A DNA stretch of 64,000 nt from an uncultured bacterium (GCA_964428355.1 CAYRYU010000010.1:39334-103333), one strand, 5' to 3'; shown: positions 19,395 to 64,000, counted from the stretch's first letter. Translations and numbers: made by a program. Notes: generated from the letters alone by a model not told the origin.

Positions 19395-19437
19395 CCGGTT
19401 TCCACCATGGATTTCCCATCGGGAAACCACACCCTGA

Positions 19438-19465
19438 TTGACATACGGGGAAATTCTGGTATATT
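19438..19465 (+). promoter_or_regulatory. Sigma-70-type promoter (TTGACA-N16-TATATT) for the lipoprotein gene
   Basis: Read directly from sequence: ttgaca 19438-19443, a 16-nt spacer, tatatt 19460-19465. AGGAGG RBS at 19494-19499 and ATG at 19505. Near-consensus AT-rich hexamers are conspicuous in this GC-rich context. Confidence 0.45.
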
Positions 19466-19504
19466 CCCCTTTCGATTCAAAAAAAATCTTTCCCAGGAGG
19501 GATC

Positions 19505-20848: not shown

Positions 20849-20873
20849 ATCCTGCCGGACAATCGAACCATTC

Positions 20874-20900
20874 CCCGCGCCCCCGGGCGCGGGTTTTTTT
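20874..20900 (+). terminator. Rho-independent terminator
   Basis: cccgcgccc(20874-20882) / gggcgcggg(20885-20893) perfect 9-bp GC stem, followed by ttttttt (20894-20900). Sits 26 nt after the lipoprotein stop. Confidence 0.7.
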
Positions 20901-20981
20901 CGTTTCCCTTTGTCGGATTCTGGGGTAGAATTCTGAGGAAATCCAGGTATGTACAACAAGAATCCATGATTGGGGAATGGC

Positions 20982-23744: not shown

Positions 23745-23758
23745 GGCAAGGAGATGTC

Positions 23759-39165: not shown

Positions 39166-40059
39166 TCACTCGAGGAACAGTTCCGGGGTGATGACCGAAT
39201 TTCCCTGGTACGGATGGGGCGCCTGGAATGAGTGGATCATCCTGAAACGGCACCGGGAGGGGACTCCCACATCACGCATGATCAGCATTCCCGGGTCATA
39301 CCATCGGCCGGTCTCCCGAAACTGCCGGAATCGCCAGGCAACGATATCGGTCACGTCGATCGTGACCTCGGCGGATCCGGATGCGGGAAGAGTCGCCGTA
39401 GAATGGGGTTCATACGAGAAATCCCCCCCGGTCGTTTCCCATGGCATCTCTCTCGTTGCCATGAACCAGGTGCATCCCCGATCGTATGACTGATGGCGTC
39501 CCCACTTTCCGTTCCCTTCCTCGAACCGTCGGGCCAGAGGGTATACGACGATAGGAACCGGTTCCCCGCAATCCGGTCCTGGGGCGAGGCGCAGGACGAG
39601 TGTCGCCCTTTCGGGGATGAACTCCGTGATCGGGATTCCGGAATCGCGGAAGGCTTTGGGAATATCGAAGCAGATCAGGTAACGAAGGCCGTTCGAGGAA
39701 TAATAGGAACCGACCGGGCCGGAAGGGTCGGCTCCGGAATTCTGCTCCGCGGCCTGGGAAGGATGTCTGTCGTTGGGGCTCCGGATGAAGGCGTCGATGC
39801 CCTCCCTGACAACCACCTGACCTTGATGGGATCGCTCCGGAATTGTCGGCCAGGAAATTCCGCGGAGACAGTTCCAGCAGGTCCTGTCCATTTCGCTTAC
39901 GGGCGCGGAACAGAAAGAACAAGAGGCTCCCCAGGCAGTCGCGATTCCCAGGTAAAGGAGGAGAACGACGACGATGGGAGCAGCGGAAATCCAGGTTCCG
40001 GGTCGTGAGAACCCGCTCTCCGGCTGAGAAAGGGTTTTCGGGAATCCCGGGGTGTTCAA
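39166..40059 (-). CDS. Membrane-anchored protein with DNRLRE-like beta-sandwich domain
   Basis: TTG start; the stop of the upstream HEAT gene overlaps it (TTGA). N-terminal TM helix PIVVVLLLYLGIATAWG. ATLVLRLAPGPDCGEPVPIVVYPL...GNGKW and SAEVTIDVTDIVAWRF resemble the conserved strands of DNRLRE-type carbohydrate-associated domains. Confidence 0.4.
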   Translation of the reverse strand: MNTPGFPKTLSQPESGFSRPGTWISAAPIVVVLLLYLGIATAWGASCSFCSAPVSEMDRTCWNCLRGISWPTIPERSHQGQVVVREGIDAFIRSPNDRHPSQAAEQNSGADPSGPVGSYYSSNGLRYLICFDIPKAFRDSGIPITEFIPERATLVLRLAPGPDCGEPVPIVVYPLARRFEEGNGKWGRHQSYDRGCTWFMATREMPWETTGGDFSYEPHSTATLPASGSAEVTIDVTDIVAWRFRQFRETGRWYDPGMLIMRDVGVPSRCRFRMIHSFQAPHPYQGNSVITPELFLE

Positions 40060-42929: not shown

Positions 42930-43078
42930 CTCGATCGCACCTCTTGTCGAAGTGAAAGTATAGCACATATCCCGAGAGGGGGCACCGCCTTTCCGGTGGG
43001 ACCTCCCGGGTTCCGCAATGCTTGACCGTTTTCTTCCCGACAGCTAGAATCACCCCATCGATTAACGGGAGGTTTGTC

Positions 43079-48119: not shown

Positions 48120-50321
48120 GTGACTGGAAGGTGCAGTAAGCCGCCTTTTGACTCCGAAAAAAGGAGAACGGATTCCCTGCGTGGCCGGCAGGGCTTCCTT
48201 CTCGCCCTGGTCTTTGGAACGATGGCGGTGCTGGCAATCTTCTTCATGGTCATGAGCTTTCTTTCGAGCGGTCAAACCCATGCGGCGACCCACTTCGTCG
48301 ATTCGGCGCGCGCTTTGTCCATCGCAATGGCGGGTGCTGAGTGGGCGATTTCCGAGTATGCGAGCGGATCCTACCACGAGGATGACGAACTGGGCCGAAT
48401 CCTCTTCGGAAGCGCACTCGATCCGGGCGAGGTTGTCCTTTCACCTCCCAAAGAGCTGGAAGACTATGTTTCCGGCACTCTGAACGGGAAACTCGACGTG
48501 AAGGTGAGGGTTTACGATATCGCTCCCTTGCCGATTCCCGAGGGGTTGAAGGGCTTCAACCAGGACCCCGTCGAAAAATCCGGGAGGATGGAGTTTTCCT
48601 CGGTGGGAACGGTTGGAAAGGCAAGCCGGAAGGTACTGATCAGGAAGGGGTTCAAGGTCGCAATGATCGTTCACCCCGTCCTGTCCAAATTCACGCTTTT
48701 CGTCAGGGAAAAGCTCAGCGGGCAGGATGTGAACGTTCTTGAGCGGAAAACCGGGAGCGCCGGATTCGAAAACGGGTCTCCCATCGTTCTCAACAATCAG
48801 GGGTCTGGAAGATCGTTTTCCGTTGTCCAGCCAGACCAAACGTTCGATCTTTCAACCGTCACGGGGGAAAAAGTGAAGGCTGGAAGGGTCGTCGACGGGT
48901 TTGAAGATCTAGTCAGGAGCTCCGGCTGGGTGTTCCTCAACTCTTCCAACAGGTCCGCACCCTGGACCCTGAACCTTTCAGGAAGCGGTGAAACCGGCGA
49001 GTTCGATGACCGGCTCCTTCTCCGTGTGGGACTCTACCGTAACGAGGGCCTCGAGAAGCTGCTCGCCCCAAAGGAAAAACTCGATTACACCGGGGAAAGG
49101 ATAGTGCGGTTGCTCGAGAGGTTCCAGGGGATGAAATCCGATTACGAGACACGTGCCCCCGATGGGATCGTCCGGAAGAAACCATGCAATATCCTGTATT
49201 TGCGGGGGCTCTTTCCCGGCGATCCCCCGAAAGCCTCATTGATCAGGCCTTTCGGCACGGGAACCCGGTTTTCCCCAACCCTGATGTTCGGGCCGGTCGA
49301 GATGCAATACCTGATACTTCGGGGTCTGGACGTCCATTTCCGGAATGCCGGGCCGGATGGGGGGAAACTCTTTTCCAATGTCCTCATTCCGGGTTTCCGG
49401 AATGAGATTGATTTCGCCCGGGCCTACGAACCGCGGTATCCGGACGATCCCGATATGGGGGCATTTGCCCGTCTCACGAACATCCCCGACCGTACCGATG
49501 CCGCCCCGGAGTTTCCCAGGTATTCCCGGGTCATGACCACGGTCGCCACAAGCCCTTTCATCGACGCCCTCGACTACATTTTCCTCGAGTCCCGTGAACG
49601 TGGAACACTGTTGAAGCCGGAATCGGTTGAATACCCCGTTCCGGTTCCCGGTATCATCGACAGGAAGGGCCAGGAGAAGATCCTGCCGTGGATCGCAAGG
49701 AACGACTCGCTTCGCGACTCCTTGATCGAAGCCCGGGGAGCTTTCGGAATGGGCAAGACACCGTTGTTCGAGGGGAACCTGTCTGATATCAAGGGCTGCA
49801 AGGAGTTCCAGTCGAAGATAACGGCCGTCTTCCCCTCCTTCAGTGAATTGGAAGCTTCTTTCCTGGAGGAAAAGGAAACCTCTTTCCAGTTGCGCCTACC
49901 CGGGATCGTATATGTGGGGGCAGACAACCTCAACATCGAGCCCCGCGACAAGGATCTCGTGATCACGAGCCCAGGAATCATTGTCAGCGGGGGCGATATC
50001 CACATCAAGGCTGCAGTGAAATCGAGCCATCCCGTCACGCTGGTCTCCCTTCGAAGCATATTCGTGGAAACGACTGAACAAATCGACGCCCATCTGGTTT
50101 GCCTGATGGGGACATTCACCGCACCGATCGGGTTCGACGTAAGGGGCGGGCTTGCCGCTTGCTCGATCGATACGTCGAAAATCGGGAACAAAGAAGCCAA
50201 GACCATCACCTTCGTACCCGAGCATGATCCCTATTCCGACCCCGACAAATGGCGGATGAAAACGGCCTACAGGTTCTATCTTTCGCAAGAGGAGGAATGC
50301 TGTGTTGAAGGCGGGAAATAG
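48120..50321 (+). CDS. Large (733 aa) membrane-anchored pilin-like protein, putative GspK-like minor pseudopilin/tip protein
   Basis: GTG start with GGGGAGAAAGG upstream. N-terminus RGRQGFLLALVFGTMAVLAIFFMVMSF resembles a prepilin-type hydrophobic helix lacking Glu+5, as in GspK-type pseudopilins. The rest has no recognisable motif. It overlaps the next pseudopilin gene. Confidence 0.45.
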   Translation: MTGRCSKPPFDSEKRRTDSLRGRQGFLLALVFGTMAVLAIFFMVMSFLSSGQTHAATHFVDSARALSIAMAGAEWAISEYASGSYHEDDELGRILFGSALDPGEVVLSPPKELEDYVSGTLNGKLDVKVRVYDIAPLPIPEGLKGFNQDPVEKSGRMEFSSVGTVGKASRKVLIRKGFKVAMIVHPVLSKFTLFVREKLSGQDVNVLERKTGSAGFENGSPIVLNNQGSGRSFSVVQPDQTFDLSTVTGEKVKAGRVVDGFEDLVRSSGWVFLNSSNRSAPWTLNLSGSGETGEFDDRLLLRVGLYRNEGLEKLLAPKEKLDYTGERIVRLLERFQGMKSDYETRAPDGIVRKKPCNILYLRGLFPGDPPKASLIRPFGTGTRFSPTLMFGPVEMQYLILRGLDVHFRNAGPDGGKLFSNVLIPGFRNEIDFARAYEPRYPDDPDMGAFARLTNIPDRTDAAPEFPRYSRVMTTVATSPFIDALDYIFLESRERGTLLKPESVEYPVPVPGIIDRKGQEKILPWIARNDSLRDSLIEARGAFGMGKTPLFEGNLSDIKGCKEFQSKITAVFPSFSELEASFLEEKETSFQLRLPGIVYVGADNLNIEPRDKDLVITSPGIIVSGGDIHIKAAVKSSHPVTLVSLRSIFVETTEQIDAHLVCLMGTFTAPIGFDVRGGLAACSIDTSKIGNKEAKTITFVPEHDPYSDPDKWRMKTAYRFYLSQEEECCVEGGK

Positions 50322-50721
50322 TCCCAGGCCTGCGGTCGGTTGCAAAGCCGGTGTGACCCTCGTCGAGGTGACCATCGCTCTCGCCATCATCGGGATCATC
50401 GCGGGAGTGATGTACCGGATAATCGACAGGCAAACCAGCCAGATGGGCAGCGATGATGCCTCTTCCCGATACTACATGGATCTCGGGTCCTTCGCCGAGA
50501 CCCTGAACTCGGATCTTTCCATGGCCCGAGTCGTCCATCCGGAATCCGGCGGCGTCAGTCTCCTCGTCAACCCCGATGGGAATCCCGGTTCGATCACGTA
50601 TTCCCTGAAGGGAAACACCATCGAGCGAAAGTTCCGTGAATCGGTGAGGGTTTTCGAGTTCACGAACCCGAAGCCCAGGCCCGGTTCCCTCATTTTTCGG
50701 ATCGAGGAGGTGAACCCATGA
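50302..50721 (+). CDS. Prepilin-type N-terminal cleavage/methylation domain protein (pseudopilin)
   Basis: GTG start with AGGAGG 7 nt upstream. KAGVTLVEVTIALAIIGIIAGV matches the G-[FV]-T-L-[IV]-E prepilin signature plus a hydrophobic helix. 139 aa. Confidence 0.65.
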   Translation: MLKAGNSPRPAVGCKAGVTLVEVTIALAIIGIIAGVMYRIIDRQTSQMGSDDASSRYYMDLGSFAETLNSDLSMARVVHPESGGVSLLVNPDGNPGSITYSLKGNTIERKFRESVRVFEFTNPKPRPGSLIFRIEEVNP

Positions 50722-51467
50722 GTCGTGGATCTTCCCCGAGTTTTCGAGGCCCGTTTTGTAGCTCGGTCTTCACTTTCACTGGCACCCTTGCGATTTTCAC
50801 ATCGATGCTCGTCCTATTCATGTTAACGGTCTGCGAAGCGAAATCCTTCAAGGCCGTCGTCGGATACGAAGGCGAGGTGATCGAGATCCCCCTTTCCCCG
50901 GGACGGATTGCTTCCCAGGCCGGGGAAATGCCCCTGCCGACATCGCCTGAGATGAACGTTGCCTTTCCCATGTCCCGGGACATTCCGACCGTCGTTCCGG
51001 GAAAGAATCCTCCCGCCGCGCCCTCTGTGCGCGAGCCGGTGGAAGATTCGGTCCCTCAAATGGACGGGGGGTTCCCCCTTGATAACGGCATTCCGACTGC
51101 CCGGAGCCTTCAAACGGCGCTCGATCTGGTGGGAAGGGTCATAGTTGCCGGGGTAAATTTCGAGTTCGATAGCGCGGACCTGACCGCCGATTCAGTCCCT
51201 TCACTGAAAGCGGTGCTGGAATACCTGAAGGATAATCCGGGAGTCAAGATCACCATCGAGGGGCACTGCGACACTTCCGGAGATACCTCTCTCAATCCGG
51301 TTCTCTCCCAGAACCGCGCGAACTCCGTGAAGAACTGGCTGGTTCAGCAGGGGGCTGACGGTTCCAGACTGTCTTCGGTCGGAATGAGTGATTCCAGGCC
51401 GATCGCGGACAATTCGACCCCCGAAGGCCAGGCAAAGAACCGCCGGGTGGAGTTGGTGAAGGAATGA
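50718..51467 (+). CDS. OmpA-family protein (C-terminal OmpA-like peptidoglycan-binding domain)
   Basis: GAGGAGG 7 nt upstream. N-terminal TM segment. C-terminus NFEFDSADLT...KITIEGHCDTSG...LSQNRANSVKNWLV...NRRVELV is the OmpA_C domain. Confidence 0.75.
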   Translation: MSRGSSPSFRGPFCSSVFTFTGTLAIFTSMLVLFMLTVCEAKSFKAVVGYEGEVIEIPLSPGRIASQAGEMPLPTSPEMNVAFPMSRDIPTVVPGKNPPAAPSVREPVEDSVPQMDGGFPLDNGIPTARSLQTALDLVGRVIVAGVNFEFDSADLTADSVPSLKAVLEYLKDNPGVKITIEGHCDTSGDTSLNPVLSQNRANSVKNWLVQQGADGSRLSSVGMSDSRPIADNSTPEGQAKNRRVELVKE

Positions 51468-51922
51468 GGGAAAGCCTCGCGGACCCCCGGGACGACGTGG
51501 CCCGGATCAGGAATATCCGGGGCTTCACCATCGTGGAAATCGTCATCGCCATGTTCGTCCTGGCGGTTTTCCTCCTTCCGCTCATGCAACACTTCATCAG
51601 TGCCCGCAGGGTTTCCCTTGCCGCACGGGATACCGTCATCGTGAACTCCTTCCAGACCGCGTGCGTTGGAGAACTCCGCCGGATCGAATACAATGACCTC
51701 GCTTCCGGGAAAGGTGCGACCCTTTCAGAAATCCTCAAAAGGTACAGCGGTGGTAAGACGGTTGGAAACCTCGATATCCAGACGTCGGTCGAAATCAACA
51801 GGTGTGTCCGGGCAAGGATGCTTACGATCGATGTGAGCTCGGAATTCAGGTTCCCAGGAACGAACGAAACCCAGGGAAAGCGAAAGATTGGCTTGCGCGG
51901 GTTCGCGTTTCCCAAGCCATGA
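51464..51922 (+). CDS. Prepilin-type N-terminal domain protein (pseudopilin)
   Basis: Leader MRESLADPRDDVARIRNIRG, then FTIVEIVIAMFVLAVFLLPL (G-F-T-I-V-E). 152 aa; overlaps its neighbours by 4 bp. Confidence 0.65.
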   Translation: MRESLADPRDDVARIRNIRGFTIVEIVIAMFVLAVFLLPLMQHFISARRVSLAARDTVIVNSFQTACVGELRRIEYNDLASGKGATLSEILKRYSGGKTVGNLDIQTSVEINRCVRARMLTIDVSSEFRFPGTNETQGKRKIGLRGFAFPKP

Positions 51923-54853: not shown

Positions 54854-55552
54854 TCAGGAGCCTTCGGTTACGAAATGAAGTCGATTCCGCTCGAAGGGTT
54901 TGTTTCGCCAGTGCTCTTCAATGCTTTGGACAAATTGAGCGGAGACGACCTTCGCCCGCTCGATCAACCAATCTCCGGACTCCCTTCGAAGGTAGATGCC
55001 TTCCATCGGGCCCTCTGCAAAACCGGAATGCCCAATCAATGACGGGAGGGAATGAGCGAGGAAAACGCCTTGAGCTAGCTTGGGAACCGACCTGAGGCCA
55101 AGCTTTTCAAGGAGTTGATCTCTCCTTCTCGTTCCCCAAAATCTCCCCTCGACCCTGTCATAGACGTCGAAGCCAAGGAACCAGTCCGGGAGGAGGTCAT
55201 AGCGGATGGCATGGCGAGCCAAACACCATTCCCCAAACAACATCAGGTTCGCGCCTAGGTTCTCGACAAGGCCCTCATTTCTTGCCCGTAACCAGTTCCA
55301 GAGGCCAGAAAACTGCCTTTCCCCGGGTGGGGTAAGGTAAGTCCCTCGATTTTGAGCCTTCAGGCTGCCGTCCACCCCCACCGAAAAGCCGAGGTTCGCC
55401 CCGTCGATTTTTTCCTCAACGACAACTTCCTGGCTGAGAAATCTCTCCACCTCAGATGGGGACAGAACCTTGTCGGCCCGGGGAGGTACCCTCCCAAGCC
55501 ACAAAAGGTGGGGGGTATGAGGAAACTTGAAAAACTCTACAGACCGGCTCAT
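54854..55552 (-). CDS. RNA ligase family protein (nucleotidyltransferase KxDG motif)
   Basis: FPHTPHLLWL followed by EKIDGANLGFS (motif I, Lys-x-Asp-Gly) and later GEWCLARH / EGIYLRRE conserved blocks of the small RNA-ligase family. Local GC is visibly lower than the flanks. Confidence 0.6.
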   Translation of the reverse strand: MSRSVEFFKFPHTPHLLWLGRVPPRADKVLSPSEVERFLSQEVVVEEKIDGANLGFSVGVDGSLKAQNRGTYLTPPGERQFSGLWNWLRARNEGLVENLGANLMLFGEWCLARHAIRYDLLPDWFLGFDVYDRVEGRFWGTRRRDQLLEKLGLRSVPKLAQGVFLAHSLPSLIGHSGFAEGPMEGIYLRRESGDWLIERAKVVSAQFVQSIEEHWRNKPFERNRLHFVTEGS

Positions 55553-55749
55553 GGACGTCTCTGGTGATGGGCAAGAAATGAAAGGAACCCATCCAAATCA
55601 AGTGTATCCGAGGTTTCCCAAAGAGGCAAGATCTATCAATGAGTTTGGAAGCCAAGGGTCGCAACGGCATACCATCACCGGAAACTGGAGGTTTCTCCTC
55701 ACATTGACTATGGTGTATAATCCCCCTGGATTTTCCAGGAGACTCCAAG

Positions 55750-56952
55750 ATGGATCCCAACCAGGTCGGACACCGCCAGAGGCTGAGAGACCGGTTTCTT
55801 TCCGGCGCAGGCCAGGCATGTACTGACCCGGAGCTCCTCGAAATCCTCCTTGGTTATGCCCTCCCCCGACGGGATGTTGCTCCCCTTGCCCGAGGTCTAC
55901 TTGAAAAGTTCCGGACCCTGAGGGGGGTCCTGACCGCTGATTTTGGGGCATTGGTGGCCGAGAAGGGCATGACTTCAGCAACCGCCACTCTCCTGAGACT
56001 GATCGGCAGCCTCACCGGCCCGTCTCAACCTCCCGTCAAGGGGAAGATAGGGCATCCCAAAGCTCTGCAACGCACCGTCAAAGATTCGGACCCTCCAACC
56101 CCGGTTCAGCTGACCCTGAAGCCATCTGAGGGTCAGGTGTCCCACCTCGGGCCGACAGCACCGCAGAAGGAGGAATCTCTCCCTCCCAAGCCGTCCTCCA
56201 AGAAGCCTCCCGAGTCTCACCTTTTTGGCAAGTCAGTTCTGGAAGAGGCCATCAAGTTGGCACCCCTGGCCCCGCTCACCGAAGAATTGAATGTGCTCCG
56301 AGAGTTCTTCCAGGGAAACCTTCATTTTAGCGCCCAACTGACGCGCCAACGTTACTCCTCTTACATCCTCAAGCGACTTTTCCCGTCTGGACATCCTGAT
56401 AAGCCCTTGCTCCAGTTCGCGCACCTTTTTTCGGGTTCCCGGGAATGGAGAGAAGTGGCTTTTCATCGATTTCTCAGGGCGGAACCCCTCCTGACACAGA
56501 TCATCCTCGAGTTGGTCCTTCCATCGGTTGGACGGGGAAAGATCTTAAGACAGGCCTTGCGCGAATATCTCCACAGGAAGTTTCCCGATTCCCGAGCCAT
56601 TGATGATTGTCTGCAAGCCGCAATCGATGCGGGGAAGTCGGGCGGCATCTGGACAGCGGATCGGCGGGAGGTCTCCTTCTCCTTTCGAGAGCCTCTCCCT
56701 CGCTCTTTCGCATTCATCCTGCATGACGAATTCCCCACTCCGGGGATGTATGACATTCCGAGTATTTTGGTCACTCCCCGATTCTCGGCCATGTTGTGGA
56801 ACCCTGACCGGTTGCTTCCGATGTGCTATGCACTTCGGAATCGGGGGATTTTGGCCAAGGTTTCCGAGATCGATACCGTTCGTCAGGTCAGTACCCGGTT
56901 TACCCCTACCCAGCTCATCGACTATCTGGAAAAACCACGGGAAATGGAATGA
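55750..56952 (+). CDS. RadC-N-terminal (UPF0758 HhH) domain fused to uncharacterised C-terminal domain; no JAB/MPN domain
   Basis: N-terminal 85 aa (RQRLRDRFLSGAGQACTDPELLEILLGYALPRRDVAPLARGLLEKFRTLRGVLTADFGALVAEKGMTSATATLLRLIGS) match the RadC/UPF0758 N-terminal helix-hairpin-helix region. A Pro-rich linker follows, then about 230 aa lacking the HxHPSG JAB motif. AGGAGA RBS. The stop overlaps the next gene's start (ATGA). Confidence 0.55.
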   Translation: MDPNQVGHRQRLRDRFLSGAGQACTDPELLEILLGYALPRRDVAPLARGLLEKFRTLRGVLTADFGALVAEKGMTSATATLLRLIGSLTGPSQPPVKGKIGHPKALQRTVKDSDPPTPVQLTLKPSEGQVSHLGPTAPQKEESLPPKPSSKKPPESHLFGKSVLEEAIKLAPLAPLTEELNVLREFFQGNLHFSAQLTRQRYSSYILKRLFPSGHPDKPLLQFAHLFSGSREWREVAFHRFLRAEPLLTQIILELVLPSVGRGKILRQALREYLHRKFPDSRAIDDCLQAAIDAGKSGGIWTADRREVSFSFREPLPRSFAFILHDEFPTPGMYDIPSILVTPRFSAMLWNPDRLLPMCYALRNRGILAKVSEIDTVRQVSTRFTPTQLIDYLEKPREME

Positions 56953-57482
56953 AAACGACTCAGATCATCGAAACCCTCCGTGAAAAGCTCAATGTTTCCG
57001 GCGGGAGGCATTTGTACGGCGTTCTGGGAACCTACCCTTCCCTTGCCGCCTTTGGAGAAAAACTTCATCAAGCCCGGACGGTCGAACGGAAGCGATTTCC
57101 CGAACCGATCGATGTGAATCGGGGAATTCTCGACTCCCTTCCCGATGAGGAGTTTTGCACCCTGGCCGGCAACGAAGCTCGGATGCCGGAACCCACGGCC
57201 GCCCAGGTGGATCGCGCATTCGAGGCATTCCTTAGGAAATCTCTGGGCAACCATGGGTTGGTGGTATTGCACCACCTCGAGCTGGTGTTCGCCTATGATC
57301 TCGAATTCTCCCCTCTGAGGACCCTGGCCACGGATAGGCATCGGATCATCCTCCTGCTCCCGGGTCATCGCCGTGGGGCGCGCATCGTTCTGTATCCTGA
57401 CCAGAATGACCGCGAATGCAGCCTCCCCGTAAACCTGATCGCAAACAACCACCTGTTTGAAATTACCGATGGAGATGCCTGA
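56949..57482 (+). CDS. Small uncharacterised protein, translationally coupled (BrxB-position gene)
   Basis: 178 aa, MKTTQIIETLREKLNVSGG... No motif I can assign. It sits between the RadC-N fusion gene and the BrxC-like ATPase. Confidence 0.45.
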   Translation: MKTTQIIETLREKLNVSGGRHLYGVLGTYPSLAAFGEKLHQARTVERKRFPEPIDVNRGILDSLPDEEFCTLAGNEARMPEPTAAQVDRAFEAFLRKSLGNHGLVVLHHLELVFAYDLEFSPLRTLATDRHRIILLLPGHRRGARIVLYPDQNDRECSLPVNLIANNHLFEITDGDA

Positions 57483-57484
57483 AG

Positions 57485-60400
57485 ATGGGCAAGAATGACG
57501 ACCTTTTCACCCAGAGGAAACCCCTTGCGGATATCTGCAAGGTCCCTGAGACCATCATTTCGGTATATGCCTTGGAAAAACACGTCTGGGAGGATGGCAA
57601 CTCCCCGAAGGCCCGGCAGAACCGCAAGCCGGAGCTCCAATCCCTGGAGGAATTCCAATTCGACCCGGTCCGGCCGTTCCTGACGGATATCTTCCGCAAC
57701 ATGGCAGCCCCCTGGAAGAAAGACCGCCGGGATGCCACAGTTGGCCAGGGATACTGGATCCAGGCGGAGTTCGGCTCGGGAAAATCCCATCTCCTCTGCG
57801 TGCTTTCAGCTCTTGCTCTCGGTGACCCGAAAGCCTGGGAAATCGTCAGGGAAAAGGAAAAGGCGGTAGGAAAAGGCAAGCGCGACAGCCTTTTCCGATT
57901 CTGGGAAGAAGGCCTGCAAGCCAAAAGCAGCGGTGGAAGCAAAGGAATCTTCGTCATCGTCAAGACCCTGGTTGGCTCTGGTGGTGGGACGGTCGGCTTG
58001 TCCCAGCAGGGCCGCCGCCTCTCAGAGTACATCATTGACGCAGCAAAAGAGCAACTTCAGGCGGAACTGGGGAAAAACCTCTCGCTATATCCCACCGAGC
58101 TACTGGCCGATCGTTTCTTCCAGGAGGATCTCGACCGCTATCGTAAGGACCTCAAGAAGTTCCTCCGCGACCCGCAATTCTTTGACGAGGATGCCTTCCA
58201 GGACGTCGATGAGTTCCTGCACCAGATCCGCCAGAACAAGTCTCCCGACTACAAGCGGAGCTGCGGGAACAAGCTATGGCGGTTCTATACGGAATTTCTG
58301 AAAGTCCAGCCCCATATTGCCGCGGAGACCGAGGATATCCTCAAGCATCTCGTGGAAACCATCCTGAATGAGGGCTATTCCGGAGTGCTATTGGTCCTCG
58401 ACGAGGTTTCCCTGTTCATGAAGGACCGTTCCGACGAACAGCGAAATGACGATGAGAAAACGTTGGTCGTTTTGGCCAATCGGCTGGCTAAAATCTACAA
58501 CCTGCCGATCTGGACGGTCTGCTCCGCCCAGCAGGCCATCGAGAGCAAGATGGGCCACAAGAACATCTTCGCCGATGATCGACTGAAGCTCGTGAAGCTC
58601 CTCGAAAAGGACACGGATTACTATCAGATCGTCCTATCCCGAGTCCGTGAGATAACGGCCCCAGGGGAGATCGGGCCGTATTTCATCCACTACAGCAAGG
58701 GGTTTTCCTGGCCCAAGGCAATCGGCGAAGAGGAATTCAAGCGGTTTTTCCCCTTCCACAAGCCTGCTCTCGAGGTCCTCCGGGACATCACTCATGAATT
58801 GACGACCGCGCGCTCCGCCATCCATTTCATGCACCAGACCCTCAAACACCAGATCAAGGTCAGGGGAAATGAGCTTATTCGGCTATGGGAATTATTCGAC
58901 GAAGCCGTCCGTTATGAAGAGGACCCCAGTGGCGCACATGCCGGGTTGGTCAGCATCAAAACCAAGAAGGACATGGAATACCGATCCTATGAGGCATGCA
59001 GGCGGCAGATCGATTCGATGACTCGTGGCCACCTAAAGGTCTATCGTGACCGGGCGGTCAAGGTCGTCCAGACCCTGTTTTTGTGCCATGTAGGGCATGC
59101 ATTTCTCCAGGGTCTGACCCCCGAGGAACTGGCCACCGCAGTCCTGATCGAGTTGAAACCTGATTCGACCATCGAAGAAAACGTCCAACATTATGAAACC
59201 CTGGCGGAAAATCTCCGCAAGGAGTTACGGCAGGTCATCGAGACCATTGATGATGAGAACCGTTGCCGCTACCGATTCGAACCGATCGTCACCGGGATAG
59301 ATCCGAGACAGGAGTTCGCCAAGGCCAGGGATGAAGCTGAAGCCAACGAGCTGATGCTCCGCCAGGCATGGGACCATCTCTTGTCCCTCGATCATTGGGA
59401 GATCCGGACGCGGCAGATGACCCTTGATTTGACCCATGGCTATGAACCCCTTTTCCAGGGGTATGCGCCCCCCATCGATCGGCCCTCCTTGGGCCAGGAG
59501 CCTTCACTGGACGTGATCTGGCTGGGACGTCAGGTTACCGGGAAGGTTCGGATGACCGATCTGAGTCACTTGGGTAGCGACAGCCAACTCCTGCCCCCCA
59601 TCGAAACCGATGCGACCGACCATGACTTTGCGGTCTACATCAGTACCCGACCGGTTTCCGACCTCCACGTGAATAAGCTGCTTAAGGGACGAAAAGACCC
59701 CCGCCTGATCATCTGGTCCCCCGCTGAACTAAACGCCGATGAGCGGGACCGCCTTCTCAACTTTGCCGCCTATCGACGCCTGGTGGAACAATTCGGTGGG
59801 AAGGACTCTGAAGATTCGGTGACGGTCATCAACTGGGTCTCGACAAACCTGGAAACCGAAATGGGGCGCATCGGAAAGATAGTGCCCGATTGTTACGCCC
59901 GGGGCCGGATGGATGCCGAAGACAATTCCCGCATGGAGTTCCACGTCGCCGGGGCCCTGGCGGCAATCCTCACTCCCGTTGTCGAACGGGTTCTGACGAC
60001 GGGGTATGTCTCCCATGATCTGGTGTTTGAGCCCCCCTTCGTGTTCCGCAAGGAAGAGGCCGTCAAGGTGATCAACGGTATTGTGAAGACCGGGGAGATC
60101 CCGAAGAACACCAAGCCAAATCAGAACATCAGCGCCGCCCAGAATTTCGGGTTCGGTCTGAAGATCATGAAGAAGAAAGCCGAGCGTGTTCTCGATATCG
60201 ACGACAATCCCTACGTGCAAGATATTCTGCAGTTCGTCGAGGACAAGCTGACCGATGCCAACCAGACCATGAAGTTTGATACGTTGTACAAAAATTTCAT
60301 GGGAAGGGGTGGACCCAAGGATTACGGCTTGACGAGACGAATGGTACAATTGTTCGTTCTGTGCCTTGTCCGGATCGGAAAGCTGAGGATCCTCGCCGGC

Positions 60401-61834
60401 GGGAAGGCGGGGCTGACAAACCCCCTCATCGATCAGGGGTCGATTGGGGGTATCGATTTCTCGGCGAAAATCCTCGATGGGCTTGCGGAAGTGCAGAAGA
60501 TCGCCCGCCCGCAGAATTGGGATGTGTTCCGCCCCTTTGCCGAGATCCTCCTCGGAAGGCCCATTCCCCTTTCTGCCGACGAGGCCGCCGTCGCCGCGGC
60601 CACTCGGGACGTAGCCACCCTCTTTCGCGCCGAAGCGGAAGGGGTGGGCCGTCTTCAAGAACGGGCCCGGGAGGTGTTCTCGGCTCTCGGAGTCCAGAAT
60701 CCCTACGGCCCGGATCTCGAAAAGATCGGCAAGTTACTGGGCTCCGACCTTGGCCAGGATCCCATCGCGGGAATCTTGTTCGGATTCCGTGAAAACCTTG
60801 GCTACACGGCCTTCGATGACAATGTCGCGCGTCCAGAGGATGTCGATGATCTGGCGACCCGGTGGCGGGCATACCGGGATCTGGCGGTTTTCTTGCGCTA
60901 CGACCGGGAGATCGTGACCGCCCAAGCCTTCGCGGCTCATCCTGTTCCGAAGGGAAAGGAAACCGAGCATCTACGGGAGCAGCAACGATGGCTTGGGAAA
61001 CGCCTGGCCGAAATCAAACCCTTCATCGACTCAGAGGTGAAGCTGAAAACCGAGCTATTGGGTACGGACGCCACCGGAAAATCCGAATCCGGCACCTTGT
61101 CCGCAACTCGACAGGCTTTCGGGGACGTGTATCTGCCCGTCCACGATCTGGTTGTTACCCGATGTGACAAGGCCCGTGAAGACATCGGGGCCCTCGGAGA
61201 AAGCGACGATTTCAAAGTAATCGCCGCTCTGGACCGCATTCCCGCCGCCGGACAGGCAATGGCGGATACGCTTCGTCAGGAACTGGGGAAGGTGACGGCA
61301 TCCGTGCCTCGATGTTTGGAAGGTTCGCGGGTCGCCGTCGAGGAACAACTGCGGCGTCACCCCGGGCACGACTGCGGCATCACTCTCGCAAACCAAGCCG
61401 AACTCCTGGAATGTGCCACCAATTCCGTCGAACAGGCCCGACAACGGGTCCAACAGGTTCTCGGGGTGAAACTCGACGTGTTGCAAAACCCGAAGATTCG
61501 CGAGCGTCTGCAACAGGGGGCAAATGATCCTTCCATCGCCGCCATCCTCAAAGCGGAGGACCGGCAGGCATTGGAGGAGGCCATCCGGGGATTGTTGGCG
61601 GAGGGAGTCGATCTTGGGAAGCTGGTGAACCGGTTCCTGAAGAAGATCGTCCTCCGGCCGGTGAAACTGGCGGATTTCCATCCCTCTCTTCACACGCTGG
61701 AGCGAAACCAGATCCCCATCATCGTCGAGGAGTTTCGCCTGTATCTCGAATCGGAGATGAAAAAGGCGGAAGGGGGCGACCCGCAACACGGCTCCGGGGG
61801 GGAGGACGTGCTCCCCATCCTGAAGGTCGAGTGA
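57485..61834 (+). CDS. BrxC/PglY-like P-loop ATPase (DUF499-type) of a BREX-like system
   Basis: 1449 aa. Walker A in context GYWIQAEFGSGKSHLLCVLSALAL at about aa 90-110, the GxxGxGKSH hallmark of BrxC/PglY. Walker B-like VLLVLDEVSLFM. Large helical C-terminal region. Followed 7 bp later by a PglZ gene. Confidence 0.75.
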   Translation: MGKNDDLFTQRKPLADICKVPETIISVYALEKHVWEDGNSPKARQNRKPELQSLEEFQFDPVRPFLTDIFRNMAAPWKKDRRDATVGQGYWIQAEFGSGKSHLLCVLSALALGDPKAWEIVREKEKAVGKGKRDSLFRFWEEGLQAKSSGGSKGIFVIVKTLVGSGGGTVGLSQQGRRLSEYIIDAAKEQLQAELGKNLSLYPTELLADRFFQEDLDRYRKDLKKFLRDPQFFDEDAFQDVDEFLHQIRQNKSPDYKRSCGNKLWRFYTEFLKVQPHIAAETEDILKHLVETILNEGYSGVLLVLDEVSLFMKDRSDEQRNDDEKTLVVLANRLAKIYNLPIWTVCSAQQAIESKMGHKNIFADDRLKLVKLLEKDTDYYQIVLSRVREITAPGEIGPYFIHYSKGFSWPKAIGEEEFKRFFPFHKPALEVLRDITHELTTARSAIHFMHQTLKHQIKVRGNELIRLWELFDEAVRYEEDPSGAHAGLVSIKTKKDMEYRSYEACRRQIDSMTRGHLKVYRDRAVKVVQTLFLCHVGHAFLQGLTPEELATAVLIELKPDSTIEENVQHYETLAENLRKELRQVIETIDDENRCRYRFEPIVTGIDPRQEFAKARDEAEANELMLRQAWDHLLSLDHWEIRTRQMTLDLTHGYEPLFQGYAPPIDRPSLGQEPSLDVIWLGRQVTGKVRMTDLSHLGSDSQLLPPIETDATDHDFAVYISTRPVSDLHVNKLLKGRKDPRLIIWSPAELNADERDRLLNFAAYRRLVEQFGGKDSEDSVTVINWVSTNLETEMGRIGKIVPDCYARGRMDAEDNSRMEFHVAGALAAILTPVVERVLTTGYVSHDLVFEPPFVFRKEEAVKVINGIVKTGEIPKNTKPNQNISAAQNFGFGLKIMKKKAERVLDIDDNPYVQDILQFVEDKLTDANQTMKFDTLYKNFMGRGGPKDYGLTRRMVQLFVLCLVRIGKLRILAGGKAGLTNPLIDQGSIGGIDFSAKILDGLAEVQKIARPQNWDVFRPFAEILLGRPIPLSADEAAVAAATRDVATLFRAEAEGVGRLQERAREVFSALGVQNPYGPDLEKIGKLLGSDLGQDPIAGILFGFRENLGYTAFDDNVARPEDVDDLATRWRAYRDLAVFLRYDREIVTAQAFAAHPVPKGKETEHLREQQRWLGKRLAEIKPFIDSEVKLKTELLGTDATGKSESGTLSATRQAFGDVYLPVHDLVVTRCDKAREDIGALGESDDFKVIAALDRIPAAGQAMADTLRQELGKVTASVPRCLEGSRVAVEEQLRRHPGHDCGITLANQAELLECATNSVEQARQRVQQVLGVKLDVLQNPKIRERLQQGANDPSIAAILKAEDRQALEEAIRGLLAEGVDLGKLVNRFLKKIVLRPVKLADFHPSLHTLERNQIPIIVEEFRLYLESEMKKAEGGDPQHGSGGEDVLPILKVE

Positions 61835-61841
61835 GGGCGGG

Positions 61842-64000
61842 ATGTCGTTGATTCACGAATGGCTGAAACCGAGGCTGGAAGCCGCTTCTGGCCAGGACCG
61901 GATCCTGATCCGGGACCCGTTCCGGCTCCTTTCCGATTCCGACGGATTCCTGCACCAATTCGCAAAAACCCACGGGTTTACCGTGCTGGTGGCCTCCACG
62001 AATCTGGTGTTCCGTGACCTGTATGAAAAAGCCCGACAGGACGAAGGCGGGAGTCGTCTCCTGATCGTGGACCGTGCGACGCCGCGACAGCGGTCCCAGG
62101 GCGGACGCGTGGCCGCGGTCGCGCCGTTCTATCCCGACCTTCTGGCCGAAACATCCCCCGAAGCCCGGATCGAAATCGGATTGCGCGGGTTTCTCCAGGA
62201 GTGGACTCACGATCCGCTTTGGCCCGCCAGGGTCGAGGATCCCCGTTTTTCCCGGCTGATCACAGCGCACTTGAAGGGTGTCCTGGTTGCCCACAGGAAC
62301 CTGAGGATGGCCTACCCTGATCGCTTCACAGATCGCGATCTCGAAGTCATTATCGCATATGCAGCCATGGGAGTACCCGAATCCGCATTCAGGCATCAGG
62401 ACGCCGAAGAATATTGGAAAATCGCTCTTCTTGGCCCCCGGGCGTTCGAGGAGCTCGAGAGCATTGCTCCTACCATCACCCGGCCGATCAGGGAGAAACT
62501 TCGCCAGGCTGCTCCTCCGTTCTGCCACTTCGCCACCCATGATCCGGAACTCGTGCTGAGGGCTTTCTATCTGGGAGTCATTCTCTCCCAACATGTCGAG
62601 AACTGGTCCCCCCTTCTGGCCAACATCGACCCGGACCTTTCCCCGCTTGCCCATCTTTCATCGCAAGCTCTGATGGACGCGGCGGACAAACTCCAAAATC
62701 TTGATCCGAAACGTGTCCGAATTGAAATCGCCCAAGTCGAGAACTCCCTGACCGCTGCCCACCTCGAATTCCTCGTGTTTTCCCAATGGAATTGGCATGA
62801 CCCGAAACGATGGGCTGATGCCTTCAGGCGCGAACGCTCCTCGGGATTGTTGCGAAGTCTCATCCTGTTACTGGCACTGGATGACTCTCTTGGAACCAAT
62901 CCCGCCGCGGGGTCTCATAAAGAGTTACACCAACTGTTGACCGACCCGGTTGGGGCGGGGTTACCCGCAGGGGAACTCCCGGACGCGGCGGAAGGGGCGA
63001 TCCGGGAGGCCTACCTGCTGGCCCTTTCCGTTCAGGCCCTCCGTCGTGATCTGGTATTGGGAAACAAAAATCTGGGAATGCTCAAGCCCGCCCAGCTGTC
63101 CCTGGCGCCCTTTCTGAAACTGTGGAAGGAGCAGAGGGTCAGCGGTCTCGAATATCGTGTTTCCCTTCTCGAGCGCAAGGTGCATCATGGAAGGATGCTT
63201 CCCAGAGCCGAGGCCGACCTTCCTCCCCGTTGCCGGGCCGCCCTGGAGTCGATCCGGTCCCGCCTGGGGGCATTGGAAACCGACGTTGGAAGCCAGTTGC
63301 AAAGCCTCGATGCCCGGTTCCAGGACCTGGTCGGGCGAGACTACCCGGGTTGGGTGTCCGGAAAAGGGGAGATCACCACCACCAGCTCTTTTCTGGAGCG
63401 GATCCTGAAGCCCCATTGGGATCCCCAGAGGGAAAAAGCCGTCCTGTTCATTTTCGACGGGATGCGGATCGACATCTGGCAGGAACTGGTCTGGCCCGCG
63501 TTGGAGGATCGCCTGGAGGCTCTCGTCGATCAGGTCGGGTCATCGCTCCTCCCTTCCGAGACCCACATTTCACGGAAAGCCATCAGCGCGGGAACCACTC
63601 CTGATGGGTTCGATTCCCATGCCGCCGAGAGCACGCTCCTGGAGTCCGCGCTGGCCCAGAAGTTCCAGTGGAGGGGGGCTGTCGATACCGTCGCCCCCGA
63701 CTCAGCCGGAACCGGAGAGACCGTTCGGTATCGGGCAGGCAACCTCGATGTCTACATTCTCGATCTGTGCGACAAGGAACTCCACAAGATCGGGGTGAAG
63801 ACCCTGGCCGACAGAAGGCAGGTGCCTGAGCGCCCGTTGGTGTTCATCTATCAGCAGTTGATCAAGAACATCATCGACCACGAAGTGATGACGATCGTCC
63901 GGGCGCTCACCCCGGGGACGAAGGTCTTCGTCACGGCAGACCACGGCTTCAGCCGAGTCGGTCGGGAGAAGTTGTGGCTGGATGCCGAATGGCTGAATGC
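61842..64000 (+). CDS. pglZ: PglZ-domain protein (alkaline-phosphatase superfamily, BREX BrxZ/PglZ), 3' end beyond window
   Basis: Not in the ORF track because no stop lies inside the window. I read the frame from ATG 61842 (MSLIHEWLKPRLEA) through 64000 without a stop. PglZ motifs occur in frame: VLFIFDGMRIDIWQEL (about 63441), LPSETHISRKAISAGTTP, and VFVTADHGFSRVG near the end. Confidence 0.75.
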   Translation, partial: MSLIHEWLKPRLEAASGQDRILIRDPFRLLSDSDGFLHQFAKTHGFTVLVASTNLVFRDLYEKARQDEGGSRLLIVDRATPRQRSQGGRVAAVAPFYPDLLAETSPEARIEIGLRGFLQEWTHDPLWPARVEDPRFSRLITAHLKGVLVAHRNLRMAYPDRFTDRDLEVIIAYAAMGVPESAFRHQDAEEYWKIALLGPRAFEELESIAPTITRPIREKLRQAAPPFCHFATHDPELVLRAFYLGVILSQHVENWSPLLANIDPDLSPLAHLSSQALMDAADKLQNLDPKRVRIEIAQVENSLTAAHLEFLVFSQWNWHDPKRWADAFRRERSSGLLRSLILLLALDDSLGTNPAAGSHKELHQLLTDPVGAGLPAGELPDAAEGAIREAYLLALSVQALRRDLVLGNKNLGMLKPAQLSLAPFLKLWKEQRVSGLEYRVSLLERKVHHGRMLPRAEADLPPRCRAALESIRSRLGALETDVGSQLQSLDARFQDLVGRDYPGWVSGKGEITTTSSFLERILKPHWDPQREKAVLFIFDGMRIDIWQELVWPALEDRLEALVDQVGSSLLPSETHISRKAISAGTTPDGFDSHAAESTLLESALAQKFQWRGAVDTVAPDSAGTGETVRYRAGNLDVYILDLCDKELHKIGVKTLADRRQVPERPLVFIYQQLIKNIIDHEVMTIVRALTPGTKVFVTADHGFSRVGREKLWLDAEWLN

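What the first reader, a model, noticed from the sequence alone, without database searches (positions are those of the whole stretch)
55750..64000. Atypical BREX-like defence locus: BrxC/PglY-type ATPase followed directly by PglZ, preceded by a RadC-N(HhH) fusion gene and a small coupled gene; no PglX or BrxP in the expected places
Seen in sequence: four co-directional, tightly packed genes (stop/start overlaps or gaps of 7 bp or less). The third carries the BrxC/PglY P-loop (AEFGSGKSH). The fourth carries PglZ motifs (FIFDGMRID...LPSETHIS...TADHGF). Established knowledge: in BREX types 1, 5 and 6 a PglX methyltransferase lies between brxC and pglZ. Type 4 is brxP-brxC-pglZ-brxL, and type 2 carries the PglW kinase. 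Here the two upstream genes show neither BrxP (PAPS-reductase) nor recognisable BrxA/BrxB motifs, and no methyltransferase occurs before pglZ. The window ends inside pglZ, so the downstream complement (brxL, pglX, or novel genes) is unknown. Inference: a variant or undescribed BREX-family arrangement, possibly a methylation-independent one.
Basis: partly seen in the sequence, partly recalled or inferred. Interest (0 to 1): 0.8.

Follow-up and report, generated by a model that had tools for sequence, protein, structure and literature searches.

The report
Unclassified BREX phage-defence variant, cut short
The window ends with the first four genes of a rare BREX-type anti-phage system whose relatives combine parts from two different BREX types, a combination that the published classification I could read does not list.

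Summary
Four intact, co-directional, tightly coupled genes lie at 55750-64000, and the quoted motifs are present.

The two upstream genes are remote BREX genes:
- g3 and g4 are very divergent BrxC and PglZ, far below every curated BREX type cut-off.

About 85 related loci share the set brxA'-brxB'-(MTase)-brxC-pglZ-(MTase)-brxL.
- The methyltransferase is the type-3 class (PglXI/BrxXI).
- BrxL is the type-1 class, with a Lon C-terminal domain.
- Of the loci that lack an upstream methyltransferase, as the window does, 27 of 29 have it directly after pglZ.
- 27 of 29 loci with enough downstream DNA carry brxL.

A methylation-independent system is therefore unlikely. The missing genes most probably lie just beyond position 64000, which I could not retrieve.

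The 2026 BREX survey calls BrxL absent from type 3 and treats PglXI as type-3/BR-specific. I rate this a new variant of a known kind, of moderate interest.

The parts
55750..56952 (+). g1: brxA-like gene encoding an HhH-BrxA fusion (400 aa)
   Evidence: Layout: RadC-type HhH domain at aa 8-88, disordered Pro-rich linker at aa 92-154, tripartite HTH/wHTH BrxA-fold domain at aa 160-395.
- Pfam UPF0758_N at 28.9 bits; 117 of 120 homologues carry it.
- 21 of 120 homologues hit Pfam BrxA, best E 2.5e-7.
- AlphaFold2 model pLDDT 84, with blocks mostly above 90 in the C-terminal domain.
- Foldseek: SspB and BrxA, probability 1.00.
56949..57482 (+). g2: brxB/brxF-like gene (177 aa), an inactive STAND/AAA+-like protein without a Walker A motif
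   Evidence: - ATGA overlap with g1.
- NCBIfam BREX_3_BrxF at 20 bits, below the cut-off of 50. 92 of 120 homologues hit it, best E 2e-5; 2 of 120 hit Pfam BrxB.
- AlphaFold2 model pLDDT 83.6, pTM 0.81.
- No GxxxxGK[ST] motif in alignment A2.
57485..61834 (+). g3: divergent brxC/pglY-type AAA+ ATPase (1449 aa)
   Evidence: - Walker A G97-S101 lies at nt 57773-57787; Walker B D306-E307 lies at nt 58400-58405.
- Pfam DUF6079/BrxC-PglY_N at 24.2 bits (cut-off 23); PADLOC BrxC at 2e-9; NCBIfam BREX_BrxC at 30.8 bits against a cut-off of 400.
- Walker A and B residues are invariant in 23 sequences.
- The family profile finds only Acinetobacter BrxC chains in the PDB, at a marginal E of 0.02.
- 23% identity over about 1340 alignment columns to the BrxC-like protein of a Halorarius BREX-like plasmid locus, E 6e-60.
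61842..64000 (+). g4: pglZ, the first 719 of 969 codons; cut by the window end, with the stop predicted near 64751
   Evidence: - Catalytic motifs: D539 at nt 63456-63458, T574 at nt 63561-63563, D700-H701 at nt 63939-63944.
- Pfam PglZ at 29.2 bits (cut-off 25).
- The full-length identical protein P0001 is 969 aa.
- D539, T574, D700, H701 and H803 are invariant in 29 homologues.
- The family profile hits the PorX PglZ domains in the PDB at E 1e-14.
- NCBIfam BREX-3 PglZ scores only 31 bits against a cut-off of 250.
55714..55742 (+). possible extended -10 element (TGTATAAT, 55714-55721) and Shine-Dalgarno (AGGAG, 55738-55742) ahead of the g1 ATG
   Evidence: Read directly from the sequence. 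The consensus promoter scan found nothing here, so this is inference only.

Best explanation
The locus is the 5' two-thirds of a six-gene BREX-superfamily defence operon from a rare, deeply divergent lineage.

Shown:
- The window encodes, in order, an HhH-BrxA fusion, a BrxB/BrxF-type inactive STAND protein, a BrxC-type AAA+ ATPase with intact Walker A and B motifs, and a PglZ with the conserved metal-binding/nucleophile residues.

Shown in relatives, inferred for this genome:
- A PglXI/BrxXI-class N6-adenine methyltransferase comes directly after pglZ. It has motif I, a four-cysteine TRD insert and DPPY.
- A type-1-class BrxL follows (MCM-like AAA+ plus Lon C-terminal domain).

Inferred mechanism, by analogy with type-1 BREX and with MANTIS:
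- BrxC, helped by BrxB' and BrxA', loads the PglXI-class methyltransferase onto short asymmetric sites in host DNA and hemimethylates them.
- Incoming DNA with unmethylated sites is recognised by the same complex.
- It is then blocked or nicked by PglZ, with BrxL acting as a DNA-encircling ATPase that stops replication.
- The HhH domain on BrxA probably adds sequence-independent DNA binding.
For: - Gene identities.
- Conserved gene set in 80+ independent contigs: 18 loci read g1-g2-M-C-Z-L and 15 read g1-g2-C-Z-M-L, plus truncated versions of both.
- With the window's order, 27 of 29 loci have the methyltransferase right after pglZ; 27 of 29 loci with at least 9 kb downstream carry brxL; 49 of 52 have g2.
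- Methyltransferase class: PADLOC PglXI 1e-66 to 1e-79; hhalign probability 100%, E 3e-62, to a canonical type-3 PglXI against 6% to a type-1 PglX. The conserved motif I, C179/C182/C200/C203 and DPPY413-416 match the BrxXI hallmarks described in PMC12839542.
- BrxL: TIGR02688 at 473 bits, above the cut-off of 329, with a Lon_C domain; about 35% identity over the full length to a type-1 BrxL in 66 loci.
- Mechanistic analogies: BrxB-PglZ-BrxC complex structure 9zll; roles of the type-1 components (PMC12839542); AAA+-dependent loading of a BR-type-2 N6-adenine methyltransferase (MtsC) in MANTIS (bioRxiv 10.64898/2026.09.23.753747).
Against: - The window stops inside pglZ, and I could not retrieve the rest of the 117 kb source contig. 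The methyltransferase and brxL are not seen in this genome.
- BrxC and PglZ similarity to characterised BREX proteins is very weak (about 30 bits against cut-offs of 250-400), so functional transfer is long-range.
- No member of this lineage has been tested. Methylation, the target motif and phage exclusion are all inferred.
- Two of 29 relatives replace BrxL with BrxD x2 plus a DEAD-box helicase, so the effector end is variable.
Confidence: 0.72

Rival explanations
1. It is simply a diverged type-3 BREX in which the BrxHII helicase was replaced by BrxL and the genes were reordered.
For: - The methyltransferase is PglXI-class.
- g2's only sequence hits are to BrxF.
- The best BREX-specific PglZ model is BREX-3.
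Against: - The defining BrxHII is absent: a canonical BrxHII query gives only one 78-aa marginal hit in 87 loci.
- The order brxA'-brxF'-brxC-pglZ differs from the type-3 order brxF-brxC-pglXI-brxHII-pglZ-brxA seen in the Roseomonas reference.
- PglZ is 969 aa with a conserved C-terminal region. The reference type-3 PglZ is 664 aa, and PMC12839542 says type-3 PglZ lacks C-terminal domains.
- The BrxC profile against type-3 BrxC gives only 20% probability; the PglZ profile aligns better to type 1.
- The survey states that BrxL is entirely absent from type 3.
Confidence: 0.13
2. It is a type-1 BREX relative (A-B-C-X-Z-L roster) that swapped PglX for an unrelated methyltransferase.
For: - Same six functional roles.
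- In order B, the gene order is nearly the same as in type 1.
- BrxL is the type-1 class with a Lon C-terminal domain.
- The PglZ profile aligns over 323 columns to a type-1 PglZ at 96% probability.
Against: - There is no PglX in any of the 87 loci.
- BrxA, BrxB, BrxC and PglZ all fail the type-1 models by a wide margin.
- The BrxC profile matches type-1 BrxC over only 72 columns.
- The g2 profile does not match type-1 BrxB by sequence (1.7% probability).
Confidence: 0.08
3. In this particular genome the system is methylation-independent or decayed, with no methyltransferase downstream.
For: - Nothing downstream of 64000 could be seen.
- 2 of 29 relatives with the window's order showed no methyltransferase after pglZ, possibly because the contigs are cut.
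Against: - 27 of 29 relatives with this order have the methyltransferase immediately after pglZ.
- All four window genes are intact and retain their catalytic motifs.
- The full-length PglZ (969 aa) is on record.
Confidence: 0.05
4. [quoted passage not shown]
For: - BR systems also pair a PglXI-like methyltransferase with an ORC/Cdc6-type ATPase.
- BR type 3 has PglZ plus an inactive STAND protein.
Against: - The ATPase matches DUF6079/BrxC, and no DUF499 hit was returned at E <= 0.1.
- PglZ is a long multidomain protein rather than standalone.
- No Swi2/Snf2 helicase, HKD or PD-(D/E)XK nuclease fusion, or HerA gene appeared among the called genes and Pfam hits of the loci inspected; I ran no dedicated search for these across all loci.
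Confidence: 0.02

Closest known systems
Type-3 BREX (brxF-brxC-pglXI-brxHII-pglZ-brxA), e.g. Roseomonas mucosa plasmid NZ_CP025192.1
   Same: - PglXI/BrxXI-class methyltransferase with a four-cysteine TRD insert between motif I and DPPY.
- A small BrxF-like inactive STAND protein.
- A tripartite BrxA-like DNA binder.
- BrxC of the DUF6079 kind and a PglZ.
   Different: - No BrxHII helicase; BrxL takes its place.
- Different gene order.
- BrxA carries an N-terminal HhH domain and sits first rather than last.
- PglZ is about 300 aa longer, with a conserved C-terminal region.
- BrxC is about 200 aa longer.
- BrxC, PglZ and BrxF score far below the NCBIfam cut-offs (30.8 bits against the generic BREX_BrxC cut-off of 400; 31 and 20 bits against the BREX-3 PglZ and BrxF cut-offs of 250 and 50).
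Type-1 BREX (brxA-brxB-brxC-pglX-pglZ-brxL), e.g. Bacillus mycoides p357, Acinetobacter BREX structures 9zll/9zn5
   Same: - The six-role roster A, B, C, methyltransferase, Z, L.
- BrxL with a Lon C-terminal domain, about 35% identical.
- PglZ with long N-terminal and C-terminal extensions.
   Different: - The methyltransferase is not PglX (0 of 87 loci) and belongs to a different class (PF01555).
- The methyltransferase lies either before brxC or after pglZ, never between them.
- A, B, C and Z are not detectable by BLAST and fail the type-1 models.
Unclassified BREX-like locus on Halorarius halobius plasmid NZ_CP101162.1 (14184-25420)
   Same: - Same brxA-brxB'-brxC-pglZ order with a PglXI-class methyltransferase.
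- It is the closest annotated relative of every core protein: hhalign BrxC E 1e-48, methyltransferase E 6e-86, BrxA 97%, BrxB' 88%, PglZ 98%.
   Different: - BrxA lacks the HhH domain.
- PglZ is short (726 aa).
- An Mre11-like phosphoesterase follows pglZ instead of BrxL.
- Identity is only 22-27%.
MANTIS / BR type-2 (Gao_RL)
   Same: An ORC/Cdc6-clade AAA+ ATPase works with an N6-adenine methyltransferase (MtsC). PMC12839542 reports that BR methyltransferases are homologous to type-3 BrxXI. This system gives the only biochemical model for how an ATPase could load such an enzyme for hemimethylation.
   Different: - The ATPase is DUF499, not DUF6079.
- The effector is a helicase-HKD nuclease.
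- There is no PglZ, BrxL, BrxA or BrxB.

Membership tests
BREX superfamily | BrxC/PglY-type ORC/Cdc6-clade AAA+ ATPase encoded next to pglZ | tested here: met
   - g3: Pfam DUF6079/BrxC-PglY_N at 24.2 bits (cut-off 23); PADLOC BrxC at 2e-9.
- Walker A and B residues are invariant.
- The only PDB sequence hits of the family profile are BrxC chains, and they are weak.
-.
BREX superfamily | PglZ (alkaline-phosphatase/NPP fold) with metal-binding and nucleophile residues | tested here: met
   - Pfam PglZ at 29.2 bits (cut-off 25).
- D539, T574, D700, H701 and H803 are invariant.
- The profile hits the PorX PglZ domains at E 1e-14.
-.
BREX superfamily | A DNA-modification gene (methyltransferase or PAPS reductase) in the operon | not testable with these tools
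   - The window ends inside pglZ, and there is no methyltransferase in the 55 kb upstream.
- In relatives the feature is met: a PglXI-class methyltransferase is found in 71 of 87 loci, and in 27 of 29 loci with the window's order.
Type-1 BREX | PglX (BrxX) methyltransferase between brxC and pglZ | tested here: not met
   - Only 7 nt separate the brxC stop from the pglZ start.
- A type-1 PglX query hits 0 of 87 related loci and not the window.
Type-1 BREX | BrxA (DUF1819) and BrxB (DUF1788) upstream of brxC | tested here: inconclusive
- The window proteins themselves do not reach the Pfam models.
- Only 21 of 120 family members hit BrxA and 2 of 120 hit BrxB.
Type-1 BREX | Curated type-1 PglZ / BrxC models reach their cut-offs | tested here: not met
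   - BREX_PglZ_1_B: 14.6 bits against a cut-off of 400.
- BREX_BrxC: 30.8 bits against a cut-off of 400.
-.
Type-3 BREX | BrxHII (Swi2/Snf2, RapA-like) helicase as a core gene | tested here: not met
   - A canonical BrxHII query gives one 78-aa marginal hit in 87 related loci.
- Loci with enough downstream DNA carry brxL instead.
- In the window itself the feature is not visible, because the contig is cut.
Type-3 BREX | PglXI/BrxXI methyltransferase with a TRD insert bearing a four-cysteine Zn finger | not testable with these tools
   - Not present in the window.
- Met in relatives.
Type-3 BREX | BrxF and the BREX-3 PglZ model reach their cut-offs; PglZ lacks a C-terminal domain | tested here: not met
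   - BrxF: 20 bits against a cut-off of 50.
- BREX_PglZ_3: 31 bits against a cut-off of 250.
- PglZ is 969 aa with a conserved C-terminal 140 aa, against 664 aa in the reference.
Type-4 BREX | BrxP PAPS reductase (often fused to DUF4007) upstream of brxC; no methyltransferase | tested here: not met
   - No PAPS_reduct hit in g1 or g2.
- Relatives carry a methyltransferase.
Type-2 BREX (Pgl) | PglW kinase-nuclease, PglX, BrxD, BrxHI | tested here: not met
   - None of these lies in the window locus.
- Some relatives carry a standalone Ser/Thr kinase between brxC and pglZ, or BrxD plus a DEAD-box helicase. The window does not.
BR (DUF499) systems / MANTIS | DUF499 ATPase plus a Swi2/Snf2 helicase (with or without a nuclease); standalone PglZ in BR type 3 | tested here: not met
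   - No DUF499 hit for g3 at E <= 0.1.
- PglZ is multidomain (969 aa).
- There is no helicase in the core set.

The most novel reading that the evidence does not exclude
This family, together with the Halorarius-type relatives, may be a separate major BREX lineage: in effect a seventh type. Its features would be:
- a type-3-class PglXI methyltransferase working with a type-1-class BrxL;
- BrxA fused to a RadC-type HhH domain;
- a methyltransferase gene that can sit on either side of the brxC-pglZ pair;
- optional Ser/Thr kinase, DUF7662 or BrxD-helicase modules.

It would have escaped current annotation because its BrxC and PglZ fall below every curated model threshold tested here.
Probability: 0.55. 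Interest if true: 0.6.

Novelty: new variant of a known kind. Interest (0 to 1): 0.52.

Why it matters
- BREX mechanism is still unresolved, and natural recombinants between types are informative. This lineage shows that BrxL and the PglXI-class methyltransferase, thought to belong to separate types, can work in one operon. It also shows that the methyltransferase position relative to brxC-pglZ is free.
- It gives a second context, besides MANTIS, in which to test whether ORC/Cdc6-type ATPases load PglXI-class methyltransferases.
- It suggests that model-based defence annotation with these libraries would miss a BREX branch. NCBIfam scores are about a tenth of the cut-offs, and PADLOC hits cover a few percent of each model.
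- The branch is found mainly in uncultured sediment, sludge and bioreactor organisms. Names attached to homologues include Phycisphaerae, Dehalococcoides, Desulfatiglans, Fervidobacterium and Methanothrix.

Tried and rejected
Extending the window failed.
- Exact look-ups of g3, the full PglZ (P0001) and g1 gave nothing, or only a 2.7 kb Logan contig.
- The cluster look-up gave no accession or organism.
- The genome-contig scan found only one 54%-identical MAG contig, which ends at pglZ.
- The metagenome scan found no contig above 50% identity.

Sequence-only searches that led nowhere.
- g1 and g2 profiles against the PDB found only an HhH hit, or nothing. The relationship needed structure prediction.
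- g3 by phmmer against the PDB found nothing relevant.
- tblastn of the full PglZ against 72,556 plasmids gave no match.
- BLAST with canonical type-1 and type-3 BrxA, BrxB/F and BrxC against all loci gave no hits.

Literature.
- A search for 'type 7 / type VII BREX' found no such description.
- A search for unclassified or BREX-like systems found only the 2026 survey and MANTIS.
- The survey's supplement does not mention RadC/UPF0758 or DUF7662; 'HhH' matched only secondary-structure strings, so that term could not be checked. Its gene-neighbourhood file is not held as text.
- Goldfarb 2015 is not held.

Ideas considered and dropped.
- A mobile-element or tRNA-linked island: there are no tRNAs in the window and no GC shift.
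- A sigma-70 promoter found by consensus scan: none was found.

Full report
**Observation.** The region holds four intact + strand genes.
- g1: 55750-56952, 400 aa.
- g2: 56949-57482, 177 aa.
- g3: 57485-61834, 1449 aa.
- g4: starts at 61842 and is still open at 64000 (719 codons).

The junctions are an ATGA overlap, a 2-nt gap and a 7-nt gap. The quoted motifs are all present: AEFGSGKSH in g3, and FIFDGMRID, LPSETHIS and TADHGF in g4. Pfam confirms three assignments: the RadC-type HhH domain at the g1 N-terminus (UPF0758_N, 28.9 bits), PglZ in g4 (29.2 bits), and, barely, DUF6079/BrxC-PglY_N in g3 (24.2 bits). PADLOC gives BrxC at 2e-9 and PglZ at 9e-6.

**Surroundings.** The 8 kb upstream encodes pilin-like N-methyl proteins, an OmpA protein, an M23 peptidase and, divergently at 54854-55552, an RNA ligase. 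Further upstream lie Ser/Thr kinases, HEAT and ankyrin repeat proteins, an AcrB pump and a GH3 hydrolase. This is ordinary chromosome. There is no tRNA and no compositional break. tblastn finds no PglXI-like or PglX-like methyltransferase and no brxL anywhere in the window.

**What lies beyond the window end.** I could not retrieve this genome's own sequence downstream.
- The full-length PglZ (P0001, 969 aa, 100% identical) sits on a 117 kb NCBI contig that the look-up tools do not hold.
- g1 is otherwise found only on a 2.7 kb Logan contig.

I therefore used relatives. Homologues of PglZ at 40-53% identity led to long contigs. A metagenome scan with a PglZ alignment found 257 relatives, of which 80 loci were fetched.

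A tblastn map of all loci shows one conserved co-directional gene set: g1 - g2 - [MTase] - brxC - pglZ - [MTase] - brxL.
- 18 loci read g1-g2-M-C-Z-L, and 15 read g1-g2-C-Z-M-L. The rest are truncated versions of these, and a few carry two methyltransferases.
- Of loci that, like the window, have no methyltransferase before brxC, 27 of 29 have it right after pglZ.
- 27 of 29 loci with at least 9 kb downstream have brxL.
- 49 of 52 loci with room upstream have g2.

**The two upstream genes.**

g1 homologues:
- 117 of 120 carry the HhH domain, and 21 of 120 hit Pfam BrxA (best E 2.5e-7).
- The AlphaFold2 model has pLDDT 84. It shows the HhH domain, a disordered linker at residues 92-154 and a confident C-terminal domain made of HTH, wHTH and wHTH modules.

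g2 homologues:
- They are well conserved and lack a Walker A motif.
- 92 of 120 hit NCBIfam BREX-3 BrxF weakly, and 2 of 120 hit Pfam BrxB.
- The model has pLDDT 83.6.

So g1 is an HhH-BrxA fusion and g2 is a BrxB/BrxF-type inactive STAND protein. This fits the 2026 survey's claim that BrxA-like and BrxB-like proteins are universal in BREX (PMC12839542).

**The downstream genes in relatives.**
- The methyltransferase (794-929 aa, Pfam N6_N4_Mtase) scores 1e-66 to 1e-79 on the PADLOC PglXI model.
- It is homologous to a canonical type-3 PglXI (hhalign probability 100%, E 3e-62) and not to a type-1 PglX (6%).
- It has conserved motif I, then C179/C182/C200/C203, then DPPY at 413-416. These are the BrxXI hallmarks described in PMC12839542.
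- BrxL passes TIGR02688 (473 bits against a cut-off of 329), has a Lon C-terminal domain, and is about 35% identical to a type-1 BrxL.

**How far BrxC and PglZ are from known types.**
- NCBIfam scores: BREX_BrxC 30.8 bits (cut-off 400), BREX-3 PglZ 31 (250), BREX-2 PglZ 29 (200), BREX-4 PglZ 16 (140), BREX-1 PglZ 15 (400).
- The family PglZ profile finds PorX in the PDB but no BREX PglZ chain.
- The BrxC profile finds only Acinetobacter BrxC, at E 0.02.
- tblastn of the PglZ against all PLSDB plasmids finds nothing.
- Against canonical references (type 1: Bacillus mycoides p357; type 3: Roseomonas mucosa plasmid), the family profiles give the following:
  - BrxC: 77% over 72 columns to type 1, and 20% to type 3.
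  - PglZ: 96% over 323 columns to type 1, and 92% over 157 columns to type 3.
- The closest annotated relative is an unclassified locus on a Halorarius halobius plasmid. It reads MTase-BrxA-173 aa-BrxC-like-PglZ-Mre11-like phosphoesterase. It matches every core protein better than either canonical type does, and it also fails the curated BREX models.
- A profile search of 1.84 billion representative proteins finds only 989 matches at E <= 1e-3 and 157 at E <= 1e-30, with roughly 25 full-length clusters above 700 bits. The family is rare and well separated.

**Comparison with the literature.** The 2026 survey (PMC12839542) resolves four major BREX clades plus three DUF499-centred BR systems and a HerA-based BRC system.
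- It states that BrxL is specific to types 1 and 4 and entirely absent from types 2 and 3.
- It treats BrxXI as specific to type 3, with homologues in BR systems.
- It says that unassigned hits were discarded.
- Neither it nor any other paper I could search describes a BrxC-PglZ system with PglXI plus BrxL, or an HhH-BrxA fusion.

I cannot exclude that members were lumped into type 3 or type 1 in that survey's gene-neighbourhood files, which are not held as text.

**Mechanism (inferred).** The inference rests on three sources:
- type-1 BREX, where BrxA, B, C, X and Z are needed for methylation, PglZ is a metal-dependent nickase bound to BrxB, and BrxL is a DNA-loading AAA+ ring;
- the 9zll complex;
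- MANTIS, where an ORC/Cdc6-clade ATPase loads an N6-adenine methyltransferase (MtsC) for hemimethylation of asymmetric 6-bp sites. The survey reports that BR methyltransferases are homologous to type-3 BrxXI.

I propose a methylation-dependent exclusion system. BrxC, with BrxB' and HhH-BrxA, loads the methyltransferase on host sites. Unmethylated incoming DNA is engaged by the same complex and is then restricted through PglZ and BrxL. No step has been tested in this lineage.

**Verdict.** The locus is real and belongs to the BREX superfamily. It fails the defining features of types 1, 2, 3 and 4 and of the BR/BRC systems. I class it as a new variant of a known kind, of moderate interest. The main caveat is that the 3' third of the operon is inferred from relatives at about 50% identity.

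Noticed in passing
window 54854-55552 (-); L006 17359-18066: An RNA ligase gene (Pfam RNA_ligase, 1.8e-32) lies divergently just upstream of g1. A 44%-identical homologue sits inside a related locus, between embedded AAA_21-type genes and brxL. It appears in only 2 of the loci examined, so the association may be a coincidence.
   Followed up: partly
L013, L014, L015, L028, L031, L033, L056, L061, L063, L076 (e.g. L014 8839-9969): A standalone Ser/Thr protein kinase (about 377 aa, Pkinase 7e-40) is inserted between brxC and pglZ in at least 10 relatives. This recalls the PglW kinase of type-2 BREX. It is absent from the window.
   Followed up: partly
about 15 loci, e.g. L014 3692-4471, L043 4732-5655: A recurrent 260-310 aa DUF7662 protein is encoded immediately upstream of brxC, after g2 or after the methyltransferase. 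Its function is unknown, and it is absent from the window.
   Followed up: partly
L011 12334-18987 (L017 also lacks brxL): In L011, brxL is replaced by two BrxD-type ATPases (PF10923) plus a DEAD-box helicase, then an AbiEi-like gene. This is the BrxD/BrxHI-type module of types 2 and 6, so the effector end of the lineage is modular. L017 also lacks brxL within 10 kb downstream, but I did not annotate its genes.
   Followed up: partly
L089 = Halorarius halobius plasmid NZ_CP101162.1, record 14184-25420: An annotated but unclassified archaeal BREX-like operon reads PglXI-class MTase - BrxA - 173 aa BrxB-like - 1301 aa BrxC-like - 726 aa PglZ - Mre11-like phosphoesterase. It is the nearest annotated relative of the window's system, and it also fails all NCBIfam BREX type models.
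   Followed up: partly
L002 15413-15919 and 18156-19493; L003 3901-5654; L006 15516-17362; L032 13101-14489; L051 11979-13921; L063 15767-17401; L079 9165-11029: Other defence genes are embedded within or next to the operons. They include PDC-S02/DUF8426, ThsB-TIR plus SLATT, AAA_21 plus DUF4276, AAA_15/21 plus HNH, Schlafen/AlbA_2, AbiEi-like and SIR2-HEPN. BREX loci commonly act as hotspots for such genes.
   Followed up: no
L004/L005 423-5641; L013, L045, L053, L064, L083: Several relatives carry two PglXI-class methyltransferase genes, either in tandem or one on each side of brxC-pglZ. This may mean two specificities or a recent swap.
   Followed up: no
L002 2808-3776: A WYL/BrxR-type regulator precedes the operon in one relative. 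The window has no such gene between the RNA ligase and g1.
   Followed up: no
window 8673-11291, 12747-15116, 16803-19394, 40056-42968, 50302-51922: The flanking chromosome encodes several Ser/Thr kinases, ankyrin and HEAT repeat proteins, and pilin-like N-methyl proteins. This gene mix may point to a Planctomycetota- or Verrucomicrobiota-like host, but that rests on my own recollection of those genomes; the organism was not identified.
   Followed up: no
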